Below, piece after piece: positions 27,395 through 41,930 of a stretch of 64,000 bases of DNA. The position numbers were made by a program, and so were the translations under genes. Source of the DNA: Escherichia phage chee24; sequence record NC_047885.1; one strand, 5' to 3'. The notes below the pieces were generated by a model. The model made no database searches and was not told the origin of the DNA. It was given only the letters and a program-made list of their open reading frames with translations. How positions within the stretch are numbered: position 1 is the first letter of the stretch; each line of letters starts with the position of its first letter.

Positions 27395-27763
27395 TTACAT
27401 CGCCTGAGTAAATGTACGACTAATAACGTCGTTCTGCTGTTCACGCGTCAGTGAGTTAAAACGTACAGCATACCCTGAAACACGGATAGTTAATTGAGGG
27501 TATTTTTCAGGATGTTTCTGTGCATCCAAAAGCTGATCACGACTTAACACATTGACATTTAGGTGCTGACCTCCCTCGATTTGAGGAACTACTTCCACCT
27601 TGACTTCACGGAAGGATTCGGGGTCAAAATGTGGTGTGATACCTTCTAGATCCTCAACTAGAACTTTTTGTTTAAGTTCACCATCTTTAGAGTACAGTTG
27701 AATAATCTGATTATCATGAACAAGATTAATTACGCCAGACTTAAGATTTTGATATGCTTTCAT
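27395..27763 (-). CDS. grcA: autonomous glycyl radical cofactor (GrcA/YfiD-like)
   Basis: 122 aa; C-terminus [11 protein letters not shown]...[32 protein letters not shown] closely matches GrcA as recalled, including the RVSGYA glycyl-radical motif. Confidence 0.8.
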
Positions 27764-27805
27764 TAGCTCTCCCCGATGTTAGAAATTGGCTCAGCTCTTT
27801 ATTCT

Positions 27806-28000
27806 TTATAGTTTACCACGATATACAGAAACTGTCTTACCAGTTTGGTTCATAACGTATGCTACTTCATCTTCTTTTAAGAAGATTGCTTGATCTATTC
27901 CAGAAATAGCTATGCTTTTATTTCTGGGATTAAACCCTACGCTTTTACCAACATGAATCTGCTCACCACCATCAGTGGACATTATTTTAACTGTTAACAT
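27806..28000 (-). CDS. hypothetical protein (64 aa)
   Basis: ORF. Confidence 0.4.
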   Translation of the reverse strand: MLTVKIMSTDGGEQIHVGKSVGFNPRNKSIAISGIDQAIFLKEDEVAYVMNQTGKTVSVYRGKL

Positions 28001-28027
28001 AATTGCTCCTATATTTAGCTATCTCTA

Positions 28028-28104
28028 GCTCTTTTAATGGTAGTTAGTAGTGGATTTGAACCACTATAGTCGCTCCGTATGAAGGAGGTGCATAACCACT
28101 CTGC
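28028..28104 (-). tRNA. tRNA-Met (anticodon CAT; could be fMet, Met or Ile2-type)
   Basis: Hand-folded cloverleaf: 7-bp acceptor, T-loop GGTTCAAATCC, anticodon loop TTCATAC, encoded CCA. Confidence 0.7.
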
Positions 28105-28209
28105 CAACTAACTATTATGTTTTACTAGACTAAGTAAGTATTCTTTGTACTCTTTAGGCCAATTAGCTTTTTTAAACTTTCCTGGACGCATAGTCTTAAT
28201 TCCTAAATT

Positions 28210-28286
28210 TGGTACTCCGGGAGGGATTTAAACCCCCGATCTCTCGGTTATCAGCCGAGTGCTTTAGATCGCTAAGCTACCGAAGC
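28210..28286 (-). tRNA. tRNA-Ile (GAT)
   Basis: Hand-folded; anticodon loop CTGATAA; acceptor with G-U pairs; CCA encoded. Confidence 0.65.
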
Positions 28287-28287
28287 A

Positions 28288-28494
28288 TTAATATTTGGTT
28301 GCAGAACGTTTACCATTTCTAGGCGCACCGGGAAGTCGGGCACATTCCGCCATTTTTCTTTTTATTTTGCGGATGTTTTCAGGTGTTTGATCTTCTGGTT
28401 TTAGGCCAGATACATTACACCATAGTTTACCCTCCCATGCTGTAATGATCATTACGCCGTTACACATAATCTTTTCTGTAAAAGAAATTCTCAT
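28288..28494 (-). CDS. hypothetical protein (68 aa)
   Basis: ORF between tRNA genes. Confidence 0.4.
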   Translation of the reverse strand: MRISFTEKIMCNGVMIITAWEGKLWCNVSGLKPEDQTPENIRKIKRKMAECARLPGAPRNGKRSATKY

Positions 28495-28787
28495 TATCGT
28501 ATCTCGTTTAGGTAAGAAGTATAATGGAATTTAGCTTCTCCAGTCTTATCTATTTCTACCTCAGTTCGTGGTACTTGACGAACTACATCATGAATCATCT
28601 TATAGCGAATGCCTTTAGCTGGTTCATGATCTTTTGGAAATACCTGTTTAACCGTTACTACTTTATACTCTTCACGCGGTGTTAACACAACTACTTGATC
28701 ACCTTCTTTGATTTTCCAAGAAGATGGAAATTCATAGGTATATCTTTGGCCACCAGTTTGGAATACTACAGAAAGATAACGCTTCAT
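28494..28787 (-). CDS. hypothetical protein (97 aa)
   Basis: ORF preceded by promoter at 28818-28846. Confidence 0.5.
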   Translation of the reverse strand: MKRYLSVVFQTGGQRYTYEFPSSWKIKEGDQVVVLTPREEYKVVTVKQVFPKDHEPAKGIRYKMIHDVVRQVPRTEVEIDKTGEAKFHYTSYLNEIR

Positions 28788-28817
28788 TTGGTTTCCCTCC
28801 CATTAATTTATATAAAT

Positions 28818-28846
28818 ATTATAACAAGAAATAAGAGAGAAGGCAA
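28818..28846 (-). promoter_or_regulatory. sigma70-type early promoter (-35 TTGCCT, -10 TATAAT)
   Basis: ATTATA-N17-AGGCAA; same 27-nt conserved core. Confidence 0.55.
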
Positions 28847-28861
28847 ATGAATTTTTAAATT

Positions 28862-28936
28862 TGGTGCTCCCACCAGGAATCGAACCCGGTTCAGATGCTT
28901 ACAAGGCAACTGCATCGCCAGCAATGCTTTAGGAGC
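28862..28936 (-). tRNA. tRNA-Thr (TGT)
   Basis: Hand-folded; T-loop GGTTCGATTCC; anticodon loop CTTGTAA. Confidence 0.65.
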
Positions 28937-29103
28937 GATAATCCCATTATTTCAATGGGATTTCTTTTTCAAATACAGGGGATTTATCTGACATTACTGT
29001 CATTGCCAACTGCTGAAGAAACTCGAAAGTTAGCTTTAAACGTTCTTCGCCTAATTCAATCTCAACGTATTTCTTTTGTTTGTCAACCTTTAATTTTAGG
29101 TTA

Positions 29104-29325
29104 TCAGCCATCTTCGGATTCTCGTTGCTTGGCTACTGCTAGCCAGTCTGGTAAAAGAAACTTAGTACGAAACTCTTCATACGTTTCTTCTGGGTAAAAG
29201 CTAAAACCTCCTTTCTCATCATTCAAGATAACAGAGCCGTCAGTTTGTTCATAAGCTCGGTATGTTTCCCCAATAATGATAACTCGTTTATCGGTACTTT
29301 TATTACGAAACTCAAAAACGTGCAT
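29104..29325 (-). CDS. hypothetical protein (73 aa)
   Basis: ORF between tRNA genes. Confidence 0.4.
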   Translation of the reverse strand: MHVFEFRNKSTDKRVIIIGETYRAYEQTDGSVILNDEKGGFSFYPEETYEEFRTKFLLPDWLAVAKQRESEDG

Positions 29326-29339
29326 AGAGATTCCTTATT

Positions 29340-29414
29340 TGGTGCGGGATACGAGAGTCGAACTCGTGTCTACTGGTTGGAAGCCAGTTATTCTAACCAC
29401 TGAACTAATCACGC
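29340..29414 (-). tRNA. tRNA-Gly (TCC)
   Basis: Hand-folded; anticodon arm ACTGG-CTTCCAA-CCAGT; T-loop TTCGACT. Confidence 0.65.
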
Positions 29415-29421
29415 ATTAATT

Positions 29422-29497
29422 TGGCTGGAGAAGGAGGAATCGAACCTACCATTAACGGAGTCAAAGGCCGTTGTGCTAACCGTTACACTACTCTCCA
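29422..29497 (-). tRNA. tRNA-Gln (TTG)
   Basis: Hand-folded; anticodon loop CTTTGAC; T-loop TTCGATT. Confidence 0.6.
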
Positions 29498-29503
29498 ATA
29501 ATT

Positions 29504-29579
29504 TGGCTGGGATGCCACGGATCGAACGTGGAACCTTCGGAGTCAGAGGCCGACGATCTGCCAATTGATCTACATCCCA
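29504..29579 (-). tRNA. tRNA-Gln (CTG)
   Basis: Hand-folded; anticodon loop CTCTGAC; perfect T-stem CCACG/CGTGG. Confidence 0.65.
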
Positions 29580-29592
29580 ATAATTCTTTACT

Positions 29593-29787
29593 CTACGGAA
29601 GTGGAGTAGTTGGCTCAGGTTCTTCAAGGCGCTTACCTTCATGATCTACTCGAATGACTCCGCATCCTTCGCAAACCACAACTGCACCATAACCTTCTTT
29701 GACTTCGGCTTCTGTAATCAGACCAGATAAGTCACCAGTATCTCTGCCCCACATATCAAGGGAGCATTGCTTGCAGAAATCAGCCAT
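29593..29787 (-). CDS. Cys-rich small protein (64 aa)
   Basis: ORF with CxxC..CxxC; between tRNA genes. Confidence 0.4.
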   Translation of the reverse strand: MADFCKQCSLDMWGRDTGDLSGLITEAEVKEGYGAVVVCEGCGVIRVDHEGKRLEEPEPTTPLP

Positions 29788-29811
29788 ATTTTATTTCCTA
29801 TTTAAGTTAAT

Positions 29812-29889
29812 TTGGGGTGGCTAGTGGAATTCGAATCCACATAGGCCTGATTCACAATCAGGATCATTAACCAATTATGATATAGCCAC
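29812..29889 (-). tRNA. tRNA-His (GTG)
   Basis: Hand-folded; anticodon arm CCTGA-TTGTGAA-TCAGG; extra 5' G typical of tRNA-His. Confidence 0.7.
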
Positions 29890-30117
29890 AATTGAAAACT
29901 CGCAGGGTTAGCGAAACCATCCTCAATTAGCATGTTCTAGAATACTAATCAAGTTATCTCCTATTGCACGCAGCTCAAGACGAGTACGAATTTTCAATTG
30001 TGGCGGCTCTCAGAAACTCTTCTATTCTAGCCCCAGAAGCTTACCCCCGAACGCATGTCGGGAAAGTCTTTCCAAGCGCATCAAATAGCACCGTTACACT
30101 TTGAGCCATTGATATAT

Positions 30118-30203
30118 CAAGGAACAGAAGGAGTTGAACCTTCACGAGATAGACCATTTATCTCAACCGCTTTTAAGGTATATTTCTAGGAGTGGATGTT
30201 CCT
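30118..30203 (-). other. tRNA-like element (perfect acceptor and T-arm, non-canonical D/anticodon region)
   Basis: Acceptor AGGAACA/TGTTCCT, T-arm GAAGG-TTCAACT-CCTTC, internal hairpin GAGATA..TATCTC; no standard anticodon loop found. Confidence 0.35.
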
Positions 30204-30257
30204 AGTAAACCTATTCGGCAGTCCCGTCTACCAATTCCGGCATATTCCAAGAATTTT

Positions 30258-30431
30258 TTATAAACCAGCAGAAGCCTCATTTAAAGCATCAACAATAGCT
30301 TCACGCTGGGTCATTCCGTACCCGGTGGAATCTAGGTGCGGCAAATAAGCCATCCACCCCTTATCTGTTTCATGAAGACATGCTTTAAATTTTTTACCAT
30401 CCTTCATTGTTACAGTAACTGTTTTGCTCAT
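30258..30431 (-). CDS. hypothetical small protein (57 aa)
   Basis: Hand-translated ORF with AAGGAAG RBS. Confidence 0.35.
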   Translation of the reverse strand: MSKTVTVTMKDGKKFKACLHETDKGWMAYLPHLDSTGYGMTQREAIVDALNEASAGL

Positions 30432-30451
30432 AAGACTTCCTTATAGTTAAT

Positions 30452-30541
30452 TGGCAGAAGATAATGGAGTCGAACCATCACCGTATCACTACAGCGGGCT
30501 GGTTTTCAAGACCAGTTACGTACCACTACGTCCTATCTTCT
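30452..30541 (-). tRNA. tRNA-Ser (TGA), class II
   Basis: 90 nt; anticodon arm CTGGT-CTTGAAA-ACCAG; long variable arm. Confidence 0.65.
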
Positions 30542-30554
30542 AGTATTTATTATA

Positions 30555-30902
30555 CTAATAGTCACTCGTACTAGTGAAATCTTCTACTTTTCCACAAATT
30601 TTACAAGTCCTACGATGATAGTAGGTAATTTTTACTTTAGACCAGCCATCGTGATCATTACCTAGGTTTTCTGTTACTCCCCAAGTATGGGAACACTCAT
30701 TTTCAATTTGCTTAGTAAGAGCGTTATAGCGAGTATAAAACTCCTCCTGGGCAATAGCAAACTCTTTCTGTAGTTTATCACGAGCAATAATAGCACGTTC
30801 CAGATATGTTAAATCGGGCATTCCAGCTTTTTCAGCAGCATCTATAACCTTATCTTCATCTAAAGATGCTAAAAACTCTAGAGCTTTATCTTTTGCTAAC
30901 AT
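30555..30902 (-). CDS. hypothetical protein (115 aa)
   Basis: ORF. Confidence 0.5.
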   Translation of the reverse strand: MLAKDKALEFLASLDEDKVIDAAEKAGMPDLTYLERAIIARDKLQKEFAIAQEEFYTRYNALTKQIENECSHTWGVTENLGNDHDGWSKVKITYYHRRTCKICGKVEDFTSTSDY

Positions 30903-30924
30903 TATTATTATTACCTCAAGTGTT

Positions 30925-31015
30925 TGGCGGAAGAGGAGAGATTTGAACTCTCAAGCCGTTTTACCAGTCAGCCACTTTCCAAGCGGTTTTCGTCGCCAAT
31001 TCGATTTGCTCTTCC
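30925..31015 (-). tRNA. tRNA-Ser (GGA), class II
   Basis: 91 nt; perfect T-arm GAGAG-TTCAAAT-CTCTC; anticodon loop TTGGAAA; long variable arm; resembles E. coli tRNA-Ser architecture. Confidence 0.55.
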
Positions 31016-31127
31016 AATAATAAGATGATGCCTCTATCACGCCAGACAGTTACGCCTCGCTGGGATTCGAACCCATTAAAACAGCTCAACCGAGATAGTA
31101 GGTTTAATTTACTCTGACCATCAAATT

Positions 31128-31204
31128 TGGTGCGTGACAAGGGATTCGAACCCTCAAAACCCGACTTCTAAGGACGGTATGTATGCCAATTCCATCAATC
31201 ACGC
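31128..31204 (-). tRNA. tRNA with anticodon TAG (Leu-type anticodon, class I shape)
   Basis: 77 nt; 7-bp acceptor, T-loop TTCGAAT, anticodon loop CTTAGAA, discriminator A; short variable arm. Confidence 0.5.
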
Positions 31205-31209
31205 GTATT

Positions 31210-31288
31210 TGGTGGAGGATAACGAATTCGAATCGTTCTGATGTCCTCGGTGCAAGCGAGGTGTCCACTCCCAGCAGACCCATCCCCC
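31210..31288 (-). tRNA. tRNA-Ala (TGC)
   Basis: Hand-folded; anticodon arm CCTCG-CTTGCAC-CGAGG; G3-U70 pair in acceptor stem. Confidence 0.65.
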
Positions 31289-31546
31289 AAAATCTTTAGT
31301 TTACTAAGGCTATTAGCTCGGCGTAACTACAGCACCTTCGCTTCGAGCGGAAGGAACTGCGTCATCTCGCAAACCCGATACACTATTCAGTTGCCATGAA
31401 TCTAGTGGACTAATCTAGAACTTCTCCCAAATCGTAGGGATCGTGCTTTTTGGCAGCCAGTCCTAGGTCGAGCTAATACCTTAGTGAACTATGATGAGGA
31501 TTTCTCCCCATCAATTTATATAAATATTATAACAAGAAATTAAGCA

Positions 31547-31906
31547 TTAAGCAAGTACATTTTTGCAGATTTCTTGTAATTCCTTTACATCACGAACGTA
31601 AAGGTAGTCTGAACTTCCAGAGTGCATACTTTGCATAAACACACCCTCATCTGGCGCAGTATCCTTCAGAGTAATTCCTAACCAAAAAGCGGCAAAACGA
31701 GGTGTTACCTCACCTTGACTTGCCTTGAATACATCGGCTTCTGTGATCTCCTGACCAGTAGAAAGTCCCATATACGGTACGTTCAGATCAATATCTTTGT
31801 AGAATTCAGCTAGGTCTTGTTCGAAGTCCCAACCTTTAGAGATAGCGAACTCTATTGTTACATGACCGAAATAGCCTTGAACCTTGCTTGATAATTGCAT
31901 TTGCAA
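31547..31906 (-). CDS. hypothetical protein (119 aa)
   Basis: ORF. Confidence 0.5.
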   Translation of the reverse strand: MQMQLSSKVQGYFGHVTIEFAISKGWDFEQDLAEFYKDIDLNVPYMGLSTGQEITEADVFKASQGEVTPRFAAFWLGITLKDTAPDEGVFMQSMHSGSSDYLYVRDVKELQEICKNVLA

Positions 31907-31925
31907 TTCCTTATTTTGAGTTAAT

Positions 31926-31999
31926 TGGTACTCGGTGATAGAATCGAACTATCGCAACCGCCGTGTAAAGACGGGGTTCTCCCATTAAACTAACCGAGC
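31926..31999 (-). tRNA. tRNA-Val (TAC)
   Basis: Hand-folded; perfect T-arm GATAG-TTCGATT-CTATC; anticodon loop TTTACAC. Confidence 0.6.
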
Positions 32000-32132
32000 A
32001 AAAGATTTGCTACTAAAAATGCTTCGAACAGAAATTCACAAAATCCCGCTAAAAACATACCTATTGTAAAATCGGCAGAAAATACATAGGAATCTTTTAT
32101 TTTCTGCTTCATTAAGTAAAACCAGATAGTCA

Positions 32133-32450
32133 TTAAAATCTCTCCATTCTAAAGCCAATGAAGTAAGGTGCATTACACGGAACATGCTTAAGATCTTTAA
32201 GAGTAATTTTACGTCCTAAGCGTCGTTCCATACAAGTGAAACATAGAACAATATCTTTGGGCTGCTCTTTTCTTATCTGATCCCAGACCCAATCTTCAAC
32301 CATACACATTTCATGGTATTGTTCACAGTCTCGACAATAATGACACTGATGTTCTGGTACTTTTTGATTTTTAATACACAGTTCAGTAAAGCGTTTTCCG
32401 GCTCTGCCAGACATTTCTGATATTGTTTCTAGAACTTTGTTAATATTCAT
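32133..32450 (-). CDS. Cys/His-rich protein (105 aa)
   Basis: ORF with several Cys/His clusters. Confidence 0.45.
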   Translation of the reverse strand: MNINKVLETISEMSGRAGKRFTELCIKNQKVPEHQCHYCRDCEQYHEMCMVEDWVWDQIRKEQPKDIVLCFTCMERRLGRKITLKDLKHVPCNAPYFIGFRMERF

Positions 32451-32467
32451 AACAAATTCCTTTAAAT

Positions 32468-32546
32468 TGGTAGATCGCCTGGGACTCGAACCCAGAACCT
32501 TCCGATTAAAAGTCGGATGCTACTAAACCTATTGAGCTAGCGACCT
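32468..32546 (-). tRNA. tRNA-Lys (TTT)
   Basis: Hand-folded; anticodon arm TCCGA-CTTTTAA-TCGGA; T-arm CTGGG-TTCGAGT-CCCAG. Confidence 0.7.
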
Positions 32547-32739
32547 ATTAGTAGCCATTATATACTTCTTTAATAGAATAGACTTTTAGGTAAGAATGAT
32601 TAATCCCAAACTCCGCCATTACTTCTTTTTCATTTTTTCCATAATGTGCAAGTAAGAATCTTGAGGTATTATTACCTAAACGTTTGTCACTTACTACTAA
32701 TCGAAATACTTTCATTTCGAAATCCTCTATTAAAAGGGA

Positions 32740-32813
32740 AGCGGGTGCAGGAATCGAACCTACCTCTTTCTAGCTTATGAGACTAGCGATCTCTACCAGA
32801 GATCTAACCCGCA
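32740..32813 (-). tRNA. tRNA-Met/Ile2 (CAT)
   Basis: Hand-folded; anticodon arm CTAGT-CTCATAA-GCTAG; CCA not encoded; acceptor register uncertain. Confidence 0.55.
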
Positions 32814-32819
32814 ATTGTT

Positions 32820-32895
32820 TGGTCAGTGCGGCAGGACTCGAACCTGCGACCCGAAGCATCCAAGGCTCCCACGCTACCAACTGCGCTACGCACTG
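32820..32895 (-). tRNA. tRNA-Pro (TGG)
   Basis: Hand-folded; perfect acceptor; D-arm GCGC-AGTTGGTA-GCGT; anticodon loop CTTGGAT. Confidence 0.7.
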
Positions 32896-33347
32896 TTAAT
32901 TTTGTTAACTCACTTTATAAGATATATTATACAGAGAATTAAGTAAAATAGCAAATGAATTTTTAATAAATTTACTTATTATGTAGGCCGCCTGGAGGCT
33001 ACCAACCCCACGGCTGACAAAGAAGTTTGCGAGACTTCTCTTAAAAGCCAGAATAGACCCGCCGGTCTATCGGAACCTACATAATAAGTAAACTTTATAG
33101 TGTCATTCTAGGCAGGACTCGAACCTGCTATCACTTGTGCGGACTTACGAGAACCATTCTTTCACTCGAATCGAACGAGCTTCTGCCCTCGCCAAGCTGG
33201 TTTCCCCCATCAACCACGCTAGAATGTTAGATTGTTTTCAGTGCAAGAGTCCGAGTCTTGGACACGACCGCTTCGCAAGTACATAGGCAGCTTATCATGA
33301 GTCAGCACTTCCGAATTGCTAGCTCCGTGTTCTGCACTGAAATTTTA

Positions 33348-33695
33348 TTAGTTTAATCGTAAAGTATTATCTACTTCACCATTAATTGTTCGGCATTCCT
33401 CTGGAATTGCCGGGGTGGCCTTGTATTCCCACCATTCAGCACCGTCATATTCCCCACGTTCTAGCCAAGTTCCATCGGCAAACCATACATTACCATAAAG
33501 TAATTGTCCGCCGTATCCAGAATCATATTCAAAGTCTAGGTTATTAAGAAAATCCTCAATATCTTCTTCTGTATAGCCTAAAGGTAATACCCAGACTTTT
33601 TTGTCCCCATAATACCCAAATTCTATTTTAATACACTTAACTTCAGAATTAGTATTTTTTAAGGCAAGTAACAGCTCTTCTTTAGCATTACGCAT
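33348..33695 (-). CDS. hypothetical protein (115 aa)
   Basis: ORF. Confidence 0.5.
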   Translation of the reverse strand: MRNAKEELLLALKNTNSEVKCIKIEFGYYGDKKVWVLPLGYTEEDIEDFLNNLDFEYDSGYGGQLLYGNVWFADGTWLERGEYDGAEWWEYKATPAIPEECRTINGEVDNTLRLN

Positions 33696-33720
33696 AATAT
33701 ATTCTCATACTGAATTAATT

Positions 33721-33797
33721 TGGCGCGACCGATGGGATTTGAACCCACATTCTCTCCCGTGACAGGGGAGTACCATTACCAAGCCAGCCCCGGTCGC
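33721..33797 (-). tRNA. tRNA-Asp (GTC)
   Basis: Hand-folded; anticodon arm CTCCC-CTGTCAC-GGGAG; T-loop TTCAAAT. Confidence 0.7.
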
Positions 33798-33806
33798 ATA
33801 ATTTAT

Positions 33807-33992
33807 TTACTCAGCTTTGAGTTTTTCAATAGCTGCATTAAGTTCTTTAAGAAACTCTTTTCGTACATTAAGACGATTGAGACTTACTAGTATATCATGT
33901 TTAAGTTCTTCGATGTATTTCTTCTCAACTTCAATATTGTTGATAGTACTATCACGATGAACTTCTAGCTGCGCAATCACATTCTTGGACAT
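33807..33992 (-). CDS. hypothetical protein (61 aa)
   Basis: ORF. Confidence 0.4.
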   Translation of the reverse strand: MSKNVIAQLEVHRDSTINNIEVEKKYIEELKHDILVSLNRLNVRKEFLKELNAAIEKLKAE

Positions 33993-34094
33993 GCTTGTTT
34001 CCTCAGTTATTAATGAAAATGGTATCTGTGGCTGAATTCGATGTCAGCAATGATAGCTGGTTGGCTACCGGTTTACTTAACTCTACACAGAATT

Positions 34095-34172
34095 TGGCGG
34101 TTCCTGCTGGATTCGAACCAGCAACCCTCAACTTAACAAGATGCCGCTCTAACCAATTAGAGCTAAGGAACC
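34095..34172 (-). tRNA. tRNA-Asn (GTT)
   Basis: Hand-folded; perfect T-arm GCTGG-TTCGAAT-CCAGC; anticodon loop TTGTTAA; anticodon stem imperfect. Confidence 0.55.
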
Positions 34173-34667
34173 ATATAAGTCAGAACTAGAGTTAATACGT
34201 CCTAGATATTTACTAAGATCCCTAGAATTTATACTAAACCACTCATGTTCTTTTAAATCTTTGAAATACTGGTGAATTAGTTTTTCACCTTTTCGTTTGT
34301 CAAACCAAAAAGACCAATGCTCTAACTTATAATCCCTATAGGGGGAATAAGTCTGATATTGAGCTAATCTCTCTTTTGGATTTTGACTCATACCTATTTT
34401 ATACTGATTTTTCCATGCAGGATTACTAATACAGTATACAAAACCTTCGGAAATAGGAAGTTTATTTTCCTGCTTAAACTTTATAAAGGAAAGTGCAGCA
34501 AGTTTTCTTGAATACATAGTATTCGTATTCTTTTTGGTATTACCATTGGTTCCTGAAAGATTTATATATTCTTCTATAAATCTCTGGATTAGTTCTGCGG
34601 TTATATAGAAGGGCTCATTAGTAACAACGCCTTTCTTTACCAAACTATCAAAAACTTTTGTATGCAC
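34149..34667 (-). CDS. T5orf172-domain (GIY-YIG-like) protein
   Basis: 172 aa; the Pfam T5orf172 family is named after a 172-aa ORF of phage T5; 3' end overlaps tRNA-Asn call by about 24 nt. Confidence 0.6.
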   Translation of the reverse strand: MHTKVFDSLVKKGVVTNEPFYITAELIQRFIEEYINLSGTNGNTKKNTNTMYSRKLAALSFIKFKQENKLPISEGFVYCISNPAWKNQYKIGMSQNPKERLAQYQTYSPYRDYKLEHWSFWFDKRKGEKLIHQYFKDLKEHEWFSINSRDLSKYLGRINSSSDLYGSLALIG

Positions 34668-34688
34668 TACTTCTTTCCTTTAGTAATT

Positions 34689-34764
34689 TGGACGACCGCA
34701 TGAGATTTGAACTCACATAAAAAGGATTTGCAATCCTTCGCCTAAGCCATTCAGCCAACGGTCG
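34689..34764 (-). tRNA. tRNA-Cys (GCA)
   Basis: Hand-folded; anticodon arm AAGGA-TTGCAAA-TCCTT; T-loop TTCAAAT. Confidence 0.7.
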
Positions 34765-34942
34765 ATTTATCTTGTTTTTCGAGATCTTCAAATTCTAAAT
34801 CATTGAAGTTCCCTAGAGTACGGGAGTAGAACCCGTCTCCTACGTCATAGCCTGATTTACCACAATCACACATTTTAAACTCTCTATAACGAGTGAAAAT
34901 ATGTTCAGAACCACAACACTTAAATTTAACTAACATTTTCAT
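34751..34942 (-). CDS. Cys-containing small protein (63 aa)
   Basis: ORF. Confidence 0.4.
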   Translation of the reverse strand: MKMLVKFKCCGSEHIFTRYREFKMCDCGKSGYDVGDGFYSRTLGNFNDLEFEDLEKQDKSTVG

Positions 34943-35181
34943 TTAACACGCTCCGGTAAATCTTCGAGTTTATATTGGGTAGCCACATTAGCAGCATCTA
35001 GTAACAAACCCATATGTTTAAGAATCCTGGTGATAGCCTCGCCTTCTGCTTCTTCTACAAAGCAACGTAGATTAACGAAGTCAATACCACCATCCATACC
35101 AGAGAAAATGTTTAGTAAGCGAAACATTACCAGCTTACGTTCTTTCAATTCTTGTTCTGTCATGTTGCTTCTCCAGTTCAA
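34939..35181 (-). CDS. hypothetical protein (80 aa)
   Basis: ORF. Confidence 0.45.
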   Translation of the reverse strand: MNWRSNMTEQELKERKLVMFRLLNIFSGMDGGIDFVNLRCFVEEAEGEAITRILKHMGLLLDAANVATQYKLEDLPERVK

Positions 35182-35213
35182 TTTATGTAATTATTATATA
35201 GAACTTTTGGAAA

Positions 35214-35501
35214 CTAAGCAACTACATTTTTTAGGAATTTGATCCCTTTCTTTTTCTTCTTATATTTCCACGTTAATGGATTCTGTCGATTATGAACGCT
35301 TGAGATCTTTGTCTCGTCAAAGTTCTTCAATATCATGTAATCACAGGATAATTGTTCTAGTGGAATGTGATCACCGTCAAAAGCGTATACATAAGGCTGT
35401 TGACTAGCACGATAATGATAGACTTTGTTAATTCTACGTTTCAGCGACTTATCCGCGCAGTAAATAAAGAAGTTTTCAGGATGCATCAGCATCTCCTTCA
35501 A
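35214..35501 (-). CDS. hypothetical protein (95 aa)
   Basis: ORF. Confidence 0.45.
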   Translation of the reverse strand: MKEMLMHPENFFIYCADKSLKRRINKVYHYRASQQPYVYAFDGDHIPLEQLSCDYMILKNFDETKISSVHNRQNPLTWKYKKKKKGIKFLKNVVA

Positions 35502-35503
35502 TT

Positions 35504-35578
35504 TGGTGCACCCTGTTCGTATCGAACGAACCTCTCAAGCTCTTCAGGCAAGCGCTAATCCATCTCAGCTAAAGGTGC
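35504..35578 (-). tRNA. tRNA-Phe (GAA)
   Basis: Hand-folded; anticodon loop CTGAAGA; T-arm GTTCG-TTCGATA-CGAAC; anticodon stem has mismatches. Confidence 0.5.
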
Positions 35579-35584
35579 AAATTT

Positions 35585-35660
35585 TGGCAAACCCACTAGG
35601 ACTCGAACCTAGACCGTACGGTTTTGGAGACCGACATGCTGTCCAGTAACACTCTAGGAA
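35585..35660 (-). other. tRNA-Trp-like 3' portion (anticodon CCA) lacking a pairing 5' acceptor strand
   Basis: T-arm CTAGG-TTCGAGT-CCTAG, CCA end and CGGTCTCCAAAACCG anticodon region resembling tRNA-Trp; no complementary 5' acceptor found. Confidence 0.35.
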
Positions 35661-35669
35661 TGCAGAAAT

Positions 35670-35763
35670 TGGTACACCCACGGAGAATTGAACTCCGATT
35701 CTCAGATTGAACTCCGATTCTCAGATTGAAATCCTGATGTCCTAGCCATTAGACGATAGGTGT
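35670..35763 (-). tRNA. tRNA-Glu (TTC) carrying a 19-nt tandem duplication
   Basis: 94 nt; acceptor, D-arm and anticodon arm TCAGG-ATTTCAA-TCTGA intact; unit ATTGAACTCCGATTCTCAG repeated at 35687-35705 and 35706-35724. Confidence 0.5.
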
Positions 35764-35771
35764 ATTAAATT

Positions 35772-35859
35772 TGGTGGGCGTTAATGGAGTCGAACCACTC
35801 GAGTCGCAATGACCAGGGATTTACAATCCCCTCCGCTACCACTTACGGAATAAACGCCC
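35772..35859 (-). tRNA. tRNA-Tyr (GTA), class II
   Basis: 88 nt; anticodon arm GGGGA-TTGTAAA-TCCCT; long variable arm; perfect acceptor. Confidence 0.65.
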
Positions 35860-35987
35860 ATATTTAGAAGCATTCAAATACTTGTTTAAACACTTTTAAA
35901 TATGTTTCCGAATTAGATAACTATTATACCAAGTTTTAAGGCACTGAGCAAGTCAAATTTTAAAGAACTTGCTCAGTGCTGTATTAG

Positions 35988-36263
35988 TTAGTCGAACTTA
36001 GGAGTGATAGTTAAGGAGAACGGAAGTTCGAAAACTTCTTCGCCCTCATTACTAACGGTAACTACACGACCTTTAAGTTCAGACATTAAAATATCAATAT
36101 CAGCTTTTGCATCTGGAGCCATGCCAGCTTCAATACATTTAGCTTTAACTTCCGGTAAAAGCTCTACGTTATAGAGATAGAGCCACTCAATCTCACCTTC
36201 CCAGTCTTCCCAGGATTTGCAGATTGCACTTTCAATACCAGTTGCTACAACACGATTTTGCAT
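35988..36263 (-). CDS. hypothetical protein (91 aa)
   Basis: ORF. Confidence 0.5.
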   Translation of the reverse strand: MQNRVVATGIESAICKSWEDWEGEIEWLYLYNVELLPEVKAKCIEAGMAPDAKADIDILMSELKGRVVTVSNEGEEVFELPFSLTITPKFD

Positions 36264-36353
36264 TAATTAACTCCTTCATCAATTTATATAACTATTATAC
36301 CAGAAATTTAAAGTAAAAGGCAAGTACATTTTTAAAAATTCTGTTTGGAGGAG

Positions 36354-36560
36354 CTAAACTCCAGATTTTTCGGCCAAGTCTAGACTAATAAGAGTTATAG
36401 CCATAATTGCTGCACCGTGTTCTTTTTCTCCGGTGTTTTTAGCAGAGTCTATAATATCCTTAATCTGTTCGTAATAACTTTTTACTTCTTGTTCAATGCC
36501 TGCCTCGGCTATCATGCCTTTAGCCATGAATCGTTGCATGGTAATTTCAGGATTAGCCAT
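36354..36560 (-). CDS. hypothetical protein (68 aa)
   Basis: ORF. Confidence 0.4.
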   Translation of the reverse strand: MANPEITMQRFMAKGMIAEAGIEQEVKSYYEQIKDIIDSAKNTGEKEHGAAIMAITLISLDLAEKSGV

Positions 36561-36735
36561 GTTGTTTCTCCAGTTTCATTTTTAATAGTTTACAGATGAA
36601 ATCAACGTCTTCATCTGTGCCTAAGTCTCTATCCTCAAGGGTCGCCTTGAAGTTTTTCGTCAATTCCATGAGGATGACTTCCCTAGAACGACGTGTTGGC
36701 GGAGGTGGATGTCTATACATCTTATTTCCTTAATT

Positions 36736-36812
36736 TGGTAGGGGTGGTGGGATTCGAACCCACAAAACCTGAATTTTAAGTCCAGTACCTATGCCAATTC
36801 GATTACACCCCC
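36736..36812 (-). tRNA. tRNA with anticodon TAA (Leu-type anticodon, class I shape)
   Basis: Hand-folded; acceptor GGGGGTG/CACCCCT, T-arm GTGGG-TTCGAAT-CCCAC, anticodon arm CTGGA-CTTAAAA-TTCAG, discriminator A. Confidence 0.5.
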
Positions 36813-37107
36813 ATGTAATCAGTTTATTAGTTGATACATATTATAGCCTAAAGAAAACCCTACTACTAATCCTACGAACCAACCAATATAATAATCTTTT
36901 AATTTCACGGGTGTCAACCTCGTTCAATATCTAGAGAAATACCACAGGTAGGATTAATGCCTGTGCCTTTGCACGTCGGACAAACCCAGATATTACAGAA
37001 TGTATCCCCTGCTTCTGCATCAGAACTTTTCCAACTCCTAGACAGTTAGGACAGGCACATTCTTCTAGCTCTTGCTTGAGTTCTTGAAACTTAGACATAT
37101 AGTTTCC

Positions 37108-37296
37108 TTATTCAATTACTTTTGAGGCTTCAAGGGAGTCGATATAGTGTACGTTTTCTACCATGATCATATAATCTGCCACTTTATCCATAGCCTGAGC
37201 TTCAGAGGTAGCCCTGGCTAACCTATATCCTTTTTTATATTCATCCGGGTATTCCCTATCTGGAATAAACACAACACAAACTAGGTATAGTTCCAC
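37108..37296 (-). CDS. hypothetical protein (62 aa)
   Basis: ORF. Confidence 0.4.
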   Translation of the reverse strand: MELYLVCVVFIPDREYPDEYKKGYRLARATSEAQAMDKVADYMIMVENVHYIDSLEASKVIE

Positions 37297-37317
37297 TTGT
37301 AACCTCTCTAATCAAGA

Positions 37318-37395
37318 TGGTGGCTCCCCGAGGATTCGAACCTACGTACCTTCCGGTTATGAGCCGGATGCTCATACCATATGAGCTTGAGAACC
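37318..37395 (-). tRNA. tRNA-Met/Ile2 (CAT)
   Basis: Hand-folded; perfect anticodon arm TCCGG-CTCATAA-CCGGA; D-arm GCTC..GAGC; T-stem weak. Confidence 0.6.
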
Positions 37396-37401
37396 AGAAT
37401 T

Positions 37402-37490
37402 TGGCGGAAGAAGTGGGAATCGAACCCACAAGGCTATATTTCAAACCGACAGATTAGCAATCTGCTGCAATACCGTTATGCTATTCTTCC
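37402..37490 (-). tRNA. tRNA-Ser (GCT), class II
   Basis: 89 nt; perfect acceptor GGAAGAA/TTCTTCC; anticodon arm GCAGA-TTGCTAA-TCTGT; long variable arm. Confidence 0.65.
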
Positions 37491-37511
37491 GAATTTATAA
37501 GATATATTATA

Positions 37512-38030
37512 TTAGAAATTTAGCTTCATAGCAAGAAAATTTTTCAAGTTTTCGGTAGACATCTCATCCACATCTACAGGAGAAACAAATCCATTTAATT
37601 GTCTAGCAAATTTTTCACCAGCAGGATCATTATCCCCAACAGCTACCAATTTAAAAGGTAGTAATTTCAATTGCTTTAACAACGCTTTTCCTGGAGAAGA
37701 ACCCAACATTGCCAGGGCTGGATAACCAGCGTTATGTAATGCTACGGCCTTAAATACAGATTCCGCAACCAATACTACTTTTTCATCCCCATTGAGAGTT
37801 TCCAGCCCCCATACACACTGTGTAGTAGAATAAGTAAAATACTTAGCTTCAAAAGGAGATTTACCATGACCTTTTGGAGCAGAAGGATTATAAGTCTGAT
37901 AGCCTCTCAACATCCCAGAGAAGTCATACAATGGGACTGTTAGCCATCCTTCCGGACTTAACCAGCAATGATATTTATCTGTATCAAACCCTCTAGATAA
38001 GAGATGTTCTGTTAGTTCATCAACAGTCAT
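37512..38030 (-). CDS. Toprim-like domain protein
   Basis: 172 aa; VVLVAES ... VAVGDNDPAGEKFARQL resembles Toprim acidic motifs; promoter at 38059-38087. Confidence 0.5.
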   Translation of the reverse strand: MTVDELTEHLLSRGFDTDKYHCWLSPEGWLTVPLYDFSGMLRGYQTYNPSAPKGHGKSPFEAKYFTYSTTQCVWGLETLNGDEKVVLVAESVFKAVALHNAGYPALAMLGSSPGKALLKQLKLLPFKLVAVGDNDPAGEKFARQLNGFVSPVDVDEMSTENLKNFLAMKLNF

Positions 38031-38058
38031 ATTAGATTCCTCTCAAATTTATAAATAT

Positions 38059-38087
38059 ATTATACAGAGGATTTAGCATTCAAGCAA
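38059..38087 (-). promoter_or_regulatory. sigma70-type early promoter (-35 TTGCTT, -10 TATAAT)
   Basis: ATTATA-N17-AAGCAA; drives 37512-38030. Confidence 0.6.
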
Positions 38088-38203
38088 TTGAATTTTTTAA
38101 CTTTTTAGAGGAAAATCACAGGATGCTTACGGGTAGCAGGTAAGTGGTCAGGACCGAAATTTGTGACCCCACTAAAAATCTGGGGTCAATTTTTAAAGAC
38201 CCC

Positions 38204-38232
38204 TTGACATTTTTGCCGGGGTAGTGTAAAGT
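38204..38232 (+). promoter_or_regulatory. sigma70 promoter (-35 TTGACA, 17-nt spacer, -10 TAAAGT)
   Basis: Consensus -35; preceded by overlapping GACCCC/GGGGTC hairpins. Confidence 0.55.
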
Positions 38233-38294
38233 ATATGTTATGGATGAGTGATCAAAGAGACACACATTTTCTATATACTAGGAGGTGTCAAAAA

Positions 38295-39275: not shown

Positions 39276-39296
39276 AATTAAGGGGAGGAGCCCATT

Positions 39297-39713: not shown

Positions 39714-39722
39714 GGAGGAATT

Positions 39723-39917: not shown

Positions 39918-39933
39918 AGAACCAATAATAAAA

Positions 39934-41020: not shown

Positions 41021-41095
41021 TGGCCGAGGTGACAGGATTCGAACCTGCATAAAGGAATTTAGAAGACTCCTGCCTCTCCCTTAGACTACACCCCG
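41021..41095 (-). tRNA. tRNA-Arg (TCT)
   Basis: Hand-folded; anticodon arm GGAGT-CTTCTAA-ATTCC; T-arm GCAGG-TTCGAAT-CCTGT. Confidence 0.65.
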
Positions 41096-41597
41096 TTTAA
41101 GTATTTTTAAGAACTCTCGTAAAAACTCTTAAAAATACAGACGATACCGGGAGAGTCATAAGTCTCACTCATTAAGTATTTCAAGACAAAATACAGTAAC
41201 GTCTATTATTTTCCAGTTTAAGTCAAGGTGACTTAGTGGTTATGTCCTGCGGTATACTGAGGACTAGGTTAGGTTAGGGTCATGACTCCCCACCTTTTTG
41301 CTGCTACTCAACAGGAGTTATCGCGAATTACCTGTGCTATTGTGCACCATTAGTGGCATCTCTCATGCCAGCATTTCCCACTTTGTGGATAGTTTGAAAA
41401 ACTACTCCGATATGGAGAAAGAACTTCACTATCCTAGAATACCTTCTAAAGTTCTTCTTTAGCCTGGACATAGTTAAATCGTAATAAAACTATTCAGCAG
41501 ACTGGTTGGTTAGTCTGGAACCAACTACCGCGTGGTTTAGGCAGTGCGCAACTAACCTCGGAAGCTTTTACATTAAAAGCACCAGTTATCCAGTTCT

Positions 41598-41670
41598 TAC
41601 CGACCGTAGGATTCGAACCTACATCTTCCACCAGTTACGGCTTGATAATACCGTTTTATACTAGATCGGC
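41598..41670 (-). other. tRNA-like element (acceptor and perfect T-arm; anticodon arm unresolved)
   Basis: T-arm GTAGG-TTCGAAT-CCTAC and acceptor GCCGATC/GGTCGGT; CCA not encoded. Confidence 0.35.
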
Positions 41671-41893
41671 AGTGTTACTACATAAGTGATTTCCACACCC
41701 CACTATCAGTAAATTAGAGAAGAGTTTAGGGGAGAGGTTTCAGACGCCCCATTTTACACGTTCTAGCCACTAACCGGGATTGCCGCCCCCTGTGTACTAG
41801 TTTTCCAACTAACCCACCGACTCTATTCAATGCGCTCCGGTTGGGATTCTGCACTCAGCGTAATCGGCTCGCTGTTCTCTAATTTATGAATAT

Positions 41894-41922: not shown

Positions 41923-41930
41923 ATAAATTT

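What the first reader, a model, noticed from the sequence alone, without database searches (positions are those of the whole stretch)
28028..37490. Leftward tRNA array of about 24 genes including three CAT-anticodon tRNAs
Hand folding identifies tRNAs for Met/Ile2 (x3), Ile, Thr, Gly, Gln (x2), His, Ser (x3), Ala, Val, Lys, Pro, Asp, Asn, Cys, Phe, Glu, Tyr, plus Arg at 41021, interleaved with small ORFs. Three CAT tRNAs suggest initiator, elongator and lysidine-type Ile2 species. Anticodons were assigned by eye and need software confirmation.
Basis: seen in the sequence. Interest (0 to 1): 0.45.

Follow-up and report, generated by a model that had tools for sequence, protein, structure and literature searches.

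The report
Phage T5-type tRNA gene cluster
This is the well-known cluster of about 25 transfer-RNA genes carried by T5-like phages, already annotated in the public record, so the finding is correct but ordinary apart from a few small oddities in individual genes.

Summary
The window is the first 64 kb of T5-like phage pork29 (MF431732.1, 100% identical). ARAGORN tRNA genes, all on the minus strand and all between 28038 and 41671. There are none elsewhere in the window and none in 20 shuffles. It missed Leu-TAG, Leu-TAA and Trp-CCA. The three CAT genes correspond to T5's curated tRNA-Met, initiator tRNA-fMet and tRNA-Ile2, and their identity elements mostly agree. Across ten related phages, 221 of 577 stem pairs show compensatory changes. 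The anticodon set favours A-ending codons that the phage uses 1.3 to 7.5 times more than E. coli (TCA is level). Published work shows that T5 tRNAs also replace host tRNAs cut by defence nucleases.

The cluster is already known. Minor points that are not annotated in the records examined:
- tRNA-Glu carries a lineage-specific 19-nt duplication predicted to misfold it.
- Both Leu tRNAs lack the long variable arm.
- tRNA-His has no encoded G-1.
- The fMet gene ends CCC rather than CCA.

The parts
28038..28113 (-). tRNA-Met (CAT), elongator type; counterpart of T5 tRNAM
   Evidence: ARAGORN 112.8. Rfam 51.4 bits. A73, U4-A69 and A5-U68. One base different from T5.
28210..28286 (-). tRNA-Ile (GAT)
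   Evidence: ARAGORN and Rfam 64.7 bits. 13 compensatory pairs among relatives.
28862..28936 (-). tRNA-Thr (TGT)
   Evidence: The anticodon arm reads UAAGC|A rather than the host UAAUC|A motif that AriB recognises.
29340..29579 (-). Three abutting genes: tRNA-Gly (TCC) 29340-29414, tRNA-Gln (TTG) 29422-29497, tRNA-Gln (CTG) 29504-29579
   Evidence: Spacers are 7 and 6 nt.
29813..29889 (-). tRNA-His (GTG), with C73 but T at position -1
29891..30251 (-). Counterparts of the T5 stable RNAs RNAIII (29891-29996), RNAI (30001-30107) and tRNA-like RNA1 (30108-30251)
   Evidence: 99-100% identical to the T5 features.
30452..30541 (-). tRNA-Ser (TGA), class II
   Evidence: ARAGORN 111.9. The best Rfam clan hit is the tRNA-Sec model at 40.2 bits, below its threshold. 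G73.
30925..31015 (-). tRNA-Ser (GGA), with a weak D arm
   Evidence: Annotated in GenBank. ARAGORN calls it only at -ps90. 7 compensatory pairs and 100% of cells paired across 7 distinct homologues.
31128..31204 (-). tRNA-Leu (TAG), 77 nt, with a 5-nt variable loop instead of a long arm
   Evidence: The same allele is in 162 phage records.
31210..31288 (-). tRNA-Ala (TGC), 79 nt
   Evidence: ARAGORN 103.3. No Rfam hit. G3.U70 pair. 15 compensatory pairs.
31308..31478 (-). Counterpart of T5 stable RNA2H
   Evidence: 97% identical to the T5 feature.
31926..31999 (-). tRNA-Val (TAC)
32468..32546 (-). tRNA-Lys (TTT); an allele different from T5's
   Evidence: 13 compensatory pairs. The anticodon arm reads U36-A-A-U-C-G41.
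32737..32813 (-). Initiator-like tRNA-fMet (CAT); the gene ends TTCCC
32820..32895 (-). tRNA-Pro (TGG)
32982..33226 (-). Counterparts of T5 stable RNAIV (32982-33082) and tRNA-like RNA2 (33101-33226)
   Evidence: Relaxed ARAGORN calls a tRNA-like fold at 33156-33224.
33721..33797 (-). tRNA-Asp (GTC)
   Evidence: Identical to T5.
34020..34092 (-). Counterpart of T5 RNA3 (putative tRNA-like, ends ACCA)
   Evidence: 100% identical to the T5 feature.
34095..34172 (-). tRNA-Asn (GTT); its first 24 nt overlap the end of ORF 34149-34667
34689..34764 (-). tRNA-Cys (GCA)
   Evidence: U73.
35504..35578 (-). tRNA-Phe (GAA), with two U.U mismatches in the anticodon stem
35585..35661 (-). tRNA-Trp (CCA), with two U.U mismatches in the acceptor stem
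   Evidence: ARAGORN 104.8. Rfam 34.1 bits.
35670..35763 (-). tRNA-Glu (TTC), 94 nt because of a 19-nt tandem duplication
35772..35859 (-). tRNA-Tyr (GTA), class II, 88 nt
   Evidence: ARAGORN 104.3. The best Rfam clan hit is the tRNA-Sec model at 33.2 bits, below its threshold. 12 compensatory pairs.
36736..36812 (-). tRNA-Leu (TAA), 77 nt, no long variable arm; T5 itself has no Leu-TAA gene
   Evidence: The same allele is in 323 phage records.
37318..37395 (-). tRNA with anticodon CAT, Ile2 type; counterpart of T5 tRNAI2
37402..37490 (-). tRNA-Ser (GCT), class II
   Evidence: Identical to T5.
37512..38030 (-). Toprim-domain ORF (172 aa), probable homologue of the anti-retron protein Rad
   Evidence: Pfam Toprim_2. 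97% identical to the SP15 189-aa protein. Rad is described as 189 aa with a Toprim domain in the tRNA-rich region.
41021..41095 (-). tRNA-Arg (TCT)
   Evidence: ARAGORN 119.7. Rfam 49.3 bits.
41096..41726 (-). Counterpart of T5 stable RNAX; it contains a degenerate tRNA-like element at 41597-41671
   Evidence: The element is called 'Ser-ACT' by ARAGORN (score 100.4) and scores 34.5 bits in Rfam. It has A at position 33 and no CCA.

Best explanation
This is the tRNA-rich region of a T5-like phage (genus Tequintavirus). It holds 25 tRNA genes at 28038-37490 and tRNA-Arg at 41021, all read leftward.

How it most likely works:
1. The genes are transcribed from several early promoters as multi-gene precursors, together with small ORFs and stable non-coding RNAs. 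This step is inferred from the promoters annotated in T5 and from the very short spacers between genes.
2. The precursors are cut by host RNases. This step is inferred.
3. The tRNAs are charged by host aminoacyl-tRNA synthetases. This step is inferred, with experimental support in T5 from amber-suppressor derivatives.

The set covers all 20 amino acids. It is built mainly from U34 anticodons for four-codon and split boxes and G34 anticodons for NNY boxes.

I propose two roles, which are not exclusive:
- The tRNAs supply decoders for the A/U-ending codons that the AT-rich phage uses much more than E. coli, especially CTA, AGA, ATA, GGA and TTA.
- They replace host tRNAs that defence nucleases destroy during infection. 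This is published for the T5 Lys, Thr and Asn tRNAs against PARIS AriB, and for T5/SP15 tRNA-Tyr against retron-Eco7.

The three CAT genes are an elongator tRNA-Met, an initiator-like tRNA-fMet and a tRNA-Ile2 that would read ATA after lysidine modification.
For: Identity of the region:
- The window is 100% identical to MF431732.1 over 14 kb, with the same coordinates, and that record already lists 26 tRNAs.
- T5 RefSeq annotates the same array, with promoters and functional notes.
- Most of those promoters map to the window. Several coincide with the best -35/-10 matches on the minus strand.

Evidence that these are real tRNA genes:
- ARAGORN finds 26 genes against 0 in shuffles. Rfam finds 23.
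- 25 of the 26 genes encode CCA. Eight neighbouring pairs are only 5-8 nt apart.
- Gene order is conserved in ten phages of three genera. 221 of 577 predicted pairs change on both sides, and 93.5% of cells stay paired.

Codon usage:
- Every A-ending codon in a split or four-codon box that is read by a phage U34 or Ile2-type tRNA is at least as frequent in the phage as in the E. coli sample: CTA 7.5x, AGA 3.9x, ATA 2.5x, GGA 2.4x, TTA 2.3x, GTA 1.8x, ACA 1.7x, CCA 1.65x, CAA 1.5x, GCA 1.3x, TCA 1.0x.
- Under E. coli wobble rules the set reads 50 of 61 sense codons and about 90% of phage codons.

Literature:
- T5 tRNA-Lys, Thr and Asn against PARIS: PMC11464382 and PMC12409363.
- tRNA-Tyr against retron-Eco7: PMC11555353.
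- tRNA-region deletion mutants of T5 are viable but sensitive to defence systems.
Against: - No expression, processing, charging or modification data exist for this particular phage.
- A plain test of Watson-Crick-matched codons against all other codons is not significant (Mann-Whitney p = 0.15). G34 tRNAs pair with the C-ending codon while the phage prefers the U-ending one, and any AT-rich genome would show enrichment of A-ending codons.
- Several members deviate from the canonical form: Glu (duplication), Trp and Phe (U.U mismatches), His (no G-1), Ser-GGA (weak D arm), fMet (CCC end).
- The E. coli codon sample is only 50 kb and is rich in ribosomal protein genes.
- No reader for CGN codons is present, so the set is not self-sufficient.
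Confidence: 0.93

Rival explanations
1. The array acts only as codon-usage compensation. The tRNAs simply raise the supply of decoders for codons that are rare in the host, and resistance to host nucleases plays no part.
For: There is strong enrichment of CTA, AGA, ATA, GGA and TTA, which are the rarest E. coli codons, and the phage carries a tRNA for each. In late structural genes, ATA makes up 28% of Ile codons and AGA 37% of Arg codons.
Against: The phage also carries tRNAs for codons it does not over-use: AAA 0.93x, GAA 0.98x, and the C-ending NNY codons at 0.4-0.8x. Published experiments show that T5 tRNAs are needed specifically on hosts carrying PARIS or retron-Eco7. At fixed positions, alleles differ mainly in anticodon stems and variable arms, which are the sites those nucleases cut.
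Confidence: 0.2
2. A substantial part of the array is decaying. Many members would be pseudogenes or tRNA-like processing signals rather than working tRNAs, kept only because the region is non-essential and is shuffled by homing endonucleases.
For: - The region is dispensable in T5.
- The T5 notes say that about half of the amber-suppressor derivatives do not suppress, and one Gln gene is flagged as a pseudogene.
- The window has a misfolding Glu gene and a degenerate tRNA-like element at 41597.
- It also has tRNA-like stable RNAs.
- Older annotations call some members 'tRNA-Pseudo'.
Against: - Compensatory substitutions are widespread (221 pairs).
- Discriminator bases and key identity elements fit the anticodon-assigned amino acid for nearly all genes.
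- Identical alleles persist in hundreds of genomes.
- Failure of a suppressor derivative is expected whenever the synthetase reads the anticodon, so it is not evidence that the gene is dead (established knowledge; identity sets).
Confidence: 0.1

Closest known systems
Bacteriophage T5 tRNA gene region (NC_005859 / AY543070, T5t01-T5t25 plus stable RNAs)
   Same: - Same genomic position, strand and gene order.
- tRNA-His, Asp, Asn, Cys, Ser-GCT and Arg-TCT are identical. Met, Ile, fMet, Thr, Val, Phe and Ile2 differ by 1-3 bases (Ile2 is 96% identical).
- All eight T5 stable RNAs and most of the annotated promoters are present.
   Different: - There is no hegA, hegC, hegD or hegE homing endonuclease gene.
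- Gly, both Gln, Ser-GGA, Leu-TAG, Ala, Lys, Pro, Trp, Glu and Tyr are different alleles.
- There is an extra Leu-TAA gene.
- The Glu gene carries a duplication.

GenBank record MF431732.1 (T5-like pork29) and its four sibling isolates
   Same: The sequence is identical, and 25 of the tRNA genes discussed here are annotated there, including the 94-nt 'tRNA-Glu'.
   Different: - The record gives no anticodons, does not separate fMet, Met and Ile2, and does not list the stable RNAs.
- It annotates a 45-aa CDS over the tRNA-like element at 41597-41671.
Phage T4 tRNA cluster (eight tRNAs, including a CAU tRNA-Ile)
   Same: A virulent coliphage carrying clustered tRNA genes for codons that are rare in the host, processed by host enzymes. 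This rests on established knowledge; T4's eight tRNA genes are mentioned in PMC4810235.
   Different: T4 has far fewer genes. It lacks an initiator and does not cover all 20 amino acids. T4 was not compared by sequence here.

Membership tests
Canonical tRNA genes (Rfam RF00005 / ARAGORN cloverleaf) | The cloverleaf scores above the program's threshold | tested here: met
   ARAGORN at default settings finds 26 genes. Rfam at its gathering score finds 23. Ser-TGA, Tyr and Ala-TGC are supported by ARAGORN only, and Ser-GGA only at a relaxed threshold.
Canonical tRNA genes (Rfam RF00005 / ARAGORN cloverleaf) | Stems are maintained by compensatory substitutions in relatives | tested here: met
   221 of 577 pairs change on both sides, and 93.5% of cells stay paired across ten phages. 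The alignments mix alleles and were not corrected for phylogeny.
T5-type (Demerecviridae) tRNA-rich region | Shared gene order and position with phage T5 and its relatives | tested here: met
Bacterial initiator tRNA-fMet (gene at 32737-32813) | Mismatch at 1:72 | tested here: met
   U1xU72, where E. coli has C1xA72.
Bacterial initiator tRNA-fMet (gene at 32737-32813) | Purine 11 : pyrimidine 24 pair, plus G2-C71 and C3-G70 | tested here: met
   A11:U24 is present, and the acceptor positions 2-6 read GCGGG as in metZ. The determinants are listed.
Bacterial initiator tRNA-fMet (gene at 32737-32813) | Three consecutive G-C pairs (29-31 : 39-41) in the anticodon stem | tested here: not met
   The stem is CUAGU/GCUAG, and only G30-C40 is present. 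That this feature defines initiators is from established knowledge.
Bacterial initiator tRNA-fMet (gene at 32737-32813) | The tRNA is formylated and used at the ribosomal P site | not testable with these tools
   The T5 record calls its counterpart 'initiator tRNA fMet'. A 1975 paper with that claim in its title is cited in PMC4810235 but could not be read.
tRNA-Ile2 (lysidine type; gene at 37318-37395) | CAU anticodon together with the IleRS elements A73, U12-A23, C29-G41, A37 and A38 | tested here: met
   C29-G41 is also kept in the second allele family, whose stem is otherwise different.
tRNA-Ile2 (lysidine type; gene at 37318-37395) | C4-G69 pair | tested here: not met
   The gene has U4-A69, although C5-G68 is present.
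tRNA-Ile2 (lysidine type; gene at 37318-37395) | C34 is converted to lysidine by TilS | not testable with these tools
   Indirect support only. ATA makes up 18% of phage Ile codons (28% in late genes) against 7% in the E. coli sample, and the array has no other ATA reader.
Elongator tRNA-Met (gene at 28038-28113) | CAU anticodon, A73, U4-A69 and A5-U68 | tested here: met
Class II bacterial tRNA-Leu (genes at 31128 and 36736) | Long variable arm | tested here: not met
   Both genes are 77 nt with a 5-nt variable loop. Other alleles at the same positions are 81-86 nt (one Sugarlandvirus Leu-TAA call is 74 nt), and E. coli leuW is 85 nt.
Class II bacterial tRNA-Leu (genes at 31128 and 36736) | A73 and a Leu-type D arm (3-bp stem, 11-nt loop with GG) | tested here: met
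   A73 is present. The D loop reads GAATTGGCATA, against GAAATTGGTAGA in leuW. E. coli LeuRS does not need the long arm (PMC9976931).
Bacterial tRNA-Glu (gene at 35670-35763) | U11-A24, the U13-G22:A46 triple, and absence of residue 47 | tested here: not met
   The un-duplicated allele has all of these, with a 4-nt variable loop GAAU. In the window the loop is 23 nt. The determinants are listed.
Bacterial tRNA-His (gene at 29813-29889) | Gene-encoded G-1 opposite C73 | tested here: not met
   C73 is present, but position -1 is T. The same is true in all nine relatives that carry the gene. The rule is given.

The most novel reading that the evidence does not exclude
The class II tRNAs of this array may be undergoing remodelling in their variable arms. 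Both Leu genes have lost the long arm completely (77 nt), and alleles at the same positions in other T5-like phages run 77/81/85 nt for Leu-TAG, 74/77/86 nt for Leu-TAA, 81-91 nt for Tyr and 89-95 nt for Ser-GCT.

The proposed reading has two parts. First, the armless Leu tRNAs are fully functional. They would then be natural exceptions to the rule that tRNA-Leu keeps a long arm everywhere except in animal mitochondria. Second, the length variation reflects selection by defence nucleases that cut the variable arm, as is published for retron-Eco7 and Septu acting on tRNA-Tyr.
Probability: 0.25. Interest if true: 0.5.

Novelty: already known. Interest (0 to 1): 0.15.

Why it matters
The cluster itself adds nothing new. 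It has been studied in T5 since the 1970s and is annotated in the matching GenBank record.

Its practical value is as a worked example of how phage tRNA sets combine codon supply with escape from tRNA-cutting defence systems. The allele-level details recorded here are each cheap to test and bear on how far host synthetases and defence nucleases tolerate deviant tRNAs:
- an armless tRNA-Leu
- a tRNA-His without G-1
- a tRNA-Lys allele that keeps most of the PARIS cleavage motif
- a tRNA-Glu broken by a duplication

Tried and rejected
- **Class II 'Glu' tRNA.** I considered that the 94-nt Glu gene might be a genuine class II-like tRNA, for example a Ser- or Leu-accepting tRNA reading GAA. I rejected this. 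The extra 19 nt are an exact tandem copy of the adjacent sequence. The same allele is 75 nt in 64 other phage records, and the junction occurs only in five sibling isolates. The duplicated RNA is predicted to leave the cloverleaf: the MFE is -26.5 kcal/mol against -19.4 for the cloverleaf, whereas the un-duplicated form has the cloverleaf as its MFE.
- **'tRNA-Ser(ACT)' at 41597-41671.** I rejected this as a working tRNA. It has A at position 33, a 3-bp anticodon stem and no CCA. It lies inside the counterpart of T5 RNAX. Its relatives show different, equally irregular anticodon loops and are called Ser-CGA or SeC-TCA.
- **Classifying the CAT genes by similarity.** Overall similarity to E. coli metZ, metT and ileX was uninformative, at 46-54 matches out of 77-78 for every pairing. 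I used identity elements instead.
- **Overall promoter count.** The number of promoter-like sites in the region is no higher than in shuffles (39 against 39.4). Only the coincidence of the top hits with T5's annotated promoters is meaningful.
- **Codon test.** A simple test of Watson-Crick-matched codons was not significant.
- **Literature on armless Leu.** A search for phage tRNA-Leu genes without the long arm found nothing relevant in the held library.
- **The 1975 paper.** The paper on T5 Met and fMet tRNAs is not held.

Full report
**Source of the sequence.** A megablast of 28000-42000 against the phage collection gives 100% identity over the full 14 kb to five sibling records. The coordinates coincide with MF431732.1, 'Bacteriophage T5-like pork29' (Tequintavirus chee24). 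That record already annotates 26 tRNA genes in this stretch. The window is therefore the left 64 kb of a T5-like phage genome, and its first 9968 bases are the annotated left terminal repeat.

**Checking the observation.**
- ARAGORN finds 26 tRNA genes, all on the minus strand and all between 28038 and 41671. None lie in the remaining roughly 50 kb, and none appear in 20 shuffles of the window.
- A 25th, Ser-GGA at 30925-31015, is in GenBank and is called by ARAGORN only at a relaxed threshold. It is a diverged allele of T5 tRNA-Ser2(GGA). Its stems covary: one anticodon-stem pair is G-C, G.U or A-U in different phages, and 7 pairs change on both sides with no breaks.
- The Rfam tRNA model passes its gathering score at 23 loci. 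The class II Ser-TGA and Tyr genes match the tRNA-Sec model better, but below its threshold.
- Ala-TGC has no Rfam hit. It does have the G3.U70 pair and 15 compensatory pairs.
It missed Leu-TAG (31128), Leu-TAA (36736) and Trp-CCA (35585).

**Comparison with relatives.** The curated T5 RefSeq record shows the same array, with named genes, promoters and eight stable RNAs. I fetched the region from eight further phages of the genera Tequintavirus, Epseptimavirus and Sugarlandvirus.
- Gene order is conserved, but individual positions carry different alleles.
- Using ARAGORN's structures for the window genes, 221 of 577 stem pairs change on both sides among relatives, and 93.5% of cells stay paired. 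This is good evidence that the cloverleaves are maintained. The caveat is that the alignments mix alleles and no phylogenetic correction was made.
- 25 of the 26 genes encode CCA, and eight neighbouring pairs are separated by only 5-8 nt. This fits transcription as multi-gene precursors.
- Most of T5's annotated promoters map to the window at 90-99% identity. The best -35/-10 matches on the minus strand fall on several of them, although the total number of promoter-like sites is no higher than in shuffles.

**The three CAT genes.** They match T5's tRNAM, tRNAfM ('initiator tRNA fMet') and tRNAI2 by position and sequence. I compared them with E. coli metT, metZ and ileX and with the bacterial identity sets tabulated in PMC9976931.
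- CAT-a (28038) has A73, U4-A69 and A5-U68, which is the Met set.
- CAT-b (32737) has a U1xU72 mismatch, A11:U24, and GCGGG at positions 2-6 as in metZ. These are the formylation determinants. It lacks the three G-C pairs of the anticodon stem and has U73, so it is initiator-like rather than canonical.
- CAT-c (37318) has A73, U12-A23, C29-G41 and A37A38, which is the Ile set. It has U4-A69 instead of C4-G69. C29-G41 is also kept in a second allele family whose stem is otherwise different.
- ATA makes up 18% of phage Ile codons (28% in late genes), against 7% in the E. coli sample, and the array has no other ATA reader.
Lysidine modification and formylation remain inferred for this phage.

**Function.**
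- I computed codon usage from long ORFs of the phage (122 ORFs) and of a 50-kb E. coli K-12 segment. Every A-ending codon in a split or four-codon box that is read by a phage U34 or Ile2-type tRNA is used at least as much in the phage: CTA 7.5x, AGA 3.9x, ATA 2.5x, GGA 2.4x, TTA 2.3x, GTA 1.8x, ACA 1.7x, CCA 1.65x, CAA 1.5x, GCA 1.3x, TCA 1.0x.
- Six of the U34 anticodons (UGC, UAC, UGU, UGG, UGA, UAG) are the ones that carry cmo5U in E. coli and so also read U-ending codons (established knowledge). U-ending codons are the phage's other preference.
- Under those wobble rules the set reads 50 of 61 sense codons and about 90% of phage codons. It has no reader for CGN.
- A cruder test of Watson-Crick-matched codons alone is not significant.
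- Published work shows that T5 tRNA-Lys, Thr and Asn resist and neutralise the PARIS nuclease AriB, which recognises U36-A-A-U-C|A41 (PMC11464382 and PMC12409363). It also shows that T5/SP15 tRNA-Tyr neutralises retron-Eco7 (PMC11555353).
- T5 mutants with deletions in the tRNA region are viable but become sensitive to these systems.
- My best explanation is therefore a dual role: codon supply, and replacement of host tRNAs cut by defence systems.

**The interleaved ORFs and RNAs.**
- All 30 ORFs tested in and flanking the array (27398-43062) match PHROG families, 25 of them with no assigned function and 27 essentially end to end.
- Pfam identifies a T5orf172/MUG113 domain (34149-34667), a Toprim domain (37512-38030), an SPFH/Band 7 protein (40039-40986), a weak YqeY-like match (41931-42374) and a glycyl-radical domain just outside the array (27395-27763).
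- The Toprim ORF is 97% identical to the 189-aa SP15 protein. That protein fits the description of the anti-retron protein Rad: 189 aa, primase/Toprim domain, located in the tRNA-rich region.
- All eight T5 stable RNAs are present in the window. Several fold with tRNA-like acceptor and T arms.
- The four T5 HNH homing endonuclease genes hegA, hegC, hegD and hegE have no counterpart in the window.

**Oddities in individual genes.**
1. tRNA-Glu is 94 nt because 19 nt (CAATCTGAGAATCGGAGTT) are tandemly duplicated between the TTCAAT of the anticodon loop and the TTCAAT of the T loop.
   - The same allele without the duplication occurs in 64 records. The junction occurs only in the five sibling isolates.
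   - The duplication turns the 4-nt variable loop into 23 nt. This removes the 'no residue 47' determinant for GluRS.
   - It also makes a non-cloverleaf fold 7 kcal/mol more stable than the cloverleaf.
   - The gene is probably inactive, or the duplication is an assembly artefact.
2. Both Leu genes are 77 nt with a 5-nt variable loop, but they have A73 and a Leu-type D arm.
   - The same alleles occur in 162 records (Leu-TAG) and 323 records (Leu-TAA).
   - Other phages carry 81-86-nt alleles at the same positions.
   - E. coli LeuRS does not need the long arm.
3. tRNA-His has C73 but T at position -1, in the window and in all nine relatives that carry the gene. In bacteria, G-1 is normally encoded in the gene.
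4. The fMet gene ends TTCCC, whereas all relatives have TTCCA.
5. The window's tRNA-Lys allele reads UAAUC-G41. It keeps U39, which T5 has changed to A, and differs from the host only at position 41. It may therefore be less resistant to PARIS than T5's tRNA-Lys. This is an inference.
6. The ARAGORN 'Ser-ACT' at 41597-41671 is a degenerate tRNA-like element inside the counterpart of RNAX.

**Verdict.** Interest is low. The most novel reading still open concerns the armless Leu tRNAs and the variation in variable-arm length among class II alleles. That variation might reflect pressure from nucleases that cut the variable arm.

Noticed in passing
window 35670-35763 (-): tRNA-Glu(TTC) carries an exact 19-nt tandem duplication. 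Among 69 phage records with this allele, the duplication is found only in the five sibling isolates. It is predicted to misfold the tRNA and to remove the 'no residue 47' determinant for GluRS. It could instead be an assembly artefact.
   Followed up: yes
window 31128-31204 and 36736-36812 (-): Both tRNA-Leu genes lack the long variable arm (77 nt, 5-nt variable loop) while keeping A73 and a Leu-type D arm. The same alleles occur in 162 and 323 phage records. Other T5-like phages have 81-86-nt alleles at the same positions.
   Followed up: partly
window 29813-29890 (-): tRNA-His has C73, but the base at position -1 is T, so G-1 is not encoded. The same junction (CAATT|GTGGCTA) is present in all nine relatives that carry the gene.
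   Followed up: partly
window 32737-32739 (-): The initiator-like tRNA gene ends TTCCC, whereas T5 and all other relatives examined have TTCCA. The terminal A would have to be added after transcription.
   Followed up: partly
window 32468-32546 (-): The tRNA-Lys(TTT) allele reads U36-A-A-U39-C40-G41. It retains U39 of the published AriB (PARIS) recognition motif, which T5 tRNA-Lys has mutated. Its resistance to PARIS may therefore differ from T5's.
   Followed up: partly
window 29891-30251, 31308-31478, 32982-33226, 34020-34092, 41096-41726 (-): Counterparts of the eight T5 'stable RNAs' (RNAIII, I, 1, 2H, IV, 2, 3, X), at 92-100% identity. They are not annotated in the pork29 record. RNA1, RNA2 and RNA3 have tRNA-like acceptor and T arms, and their function is unknown.
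   Followed up: partly
window 41597-41671 (-): A degenerate tRNA-like element lies inside the RNAX counterpart. ARAGORN calls it 'Ser-ACT' and Rfam scores it 34.5 bits. It has A at position 33 and no CCA. GenBank annotates a 45-aa CDS over it, and a relative annotates its counterpart as tRNA-SeC(TCA).
   Followed up: partly
window 37512-38030 (-): A 172-aa Toprim-domain ORF immediately upstream of tRNA-Ser(GCT). It is 97% identical to the SP15 189-aa protein that fits the description of the anti-retron protein Rad.
   Followed up: partly
window 34149-34667 (-): An ORF with T5orf172/MUG113 domains. Its last 24 nt overlap the 5' end of tRNA-Asn. It is conserved in T5 as T5.069.
   Followed up: no
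window 38235-39968 (+): A short rightward-transcribed island inside the leftward region. Its GC content is higher (0.447) and its GC skew is reversed. It holds two conserved ORFs of unknown function (326 and 138 aa), lying between the counterpart of T5 promoter P12 and a strong bidirectional terminator at about 39984-40015.
   Followed up: partly
window 28000-38000, compared with T5 locus L002: The four HNH homing endonuclease genes that interrupt the T5 tRNA region (hegA, hegC, hegD, hegE) have no counterpart in the window. Alleles of many tRNA genes differ between phages at fixed positions, as if they were exchanged like cassettes.
   Followed up: partly
window 27395-27763 (-) and 41931-42374 (-): Two ORFs flank the array. 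One is a 122-aa protein with a glycyl-radical domain, similar to a spare part for pyruvate formate-lyase. The other is a 147-aa protein labelled 'tRNA amidotransferase', with only a weak, sub-threshold YqeY match.
   Followed up: no
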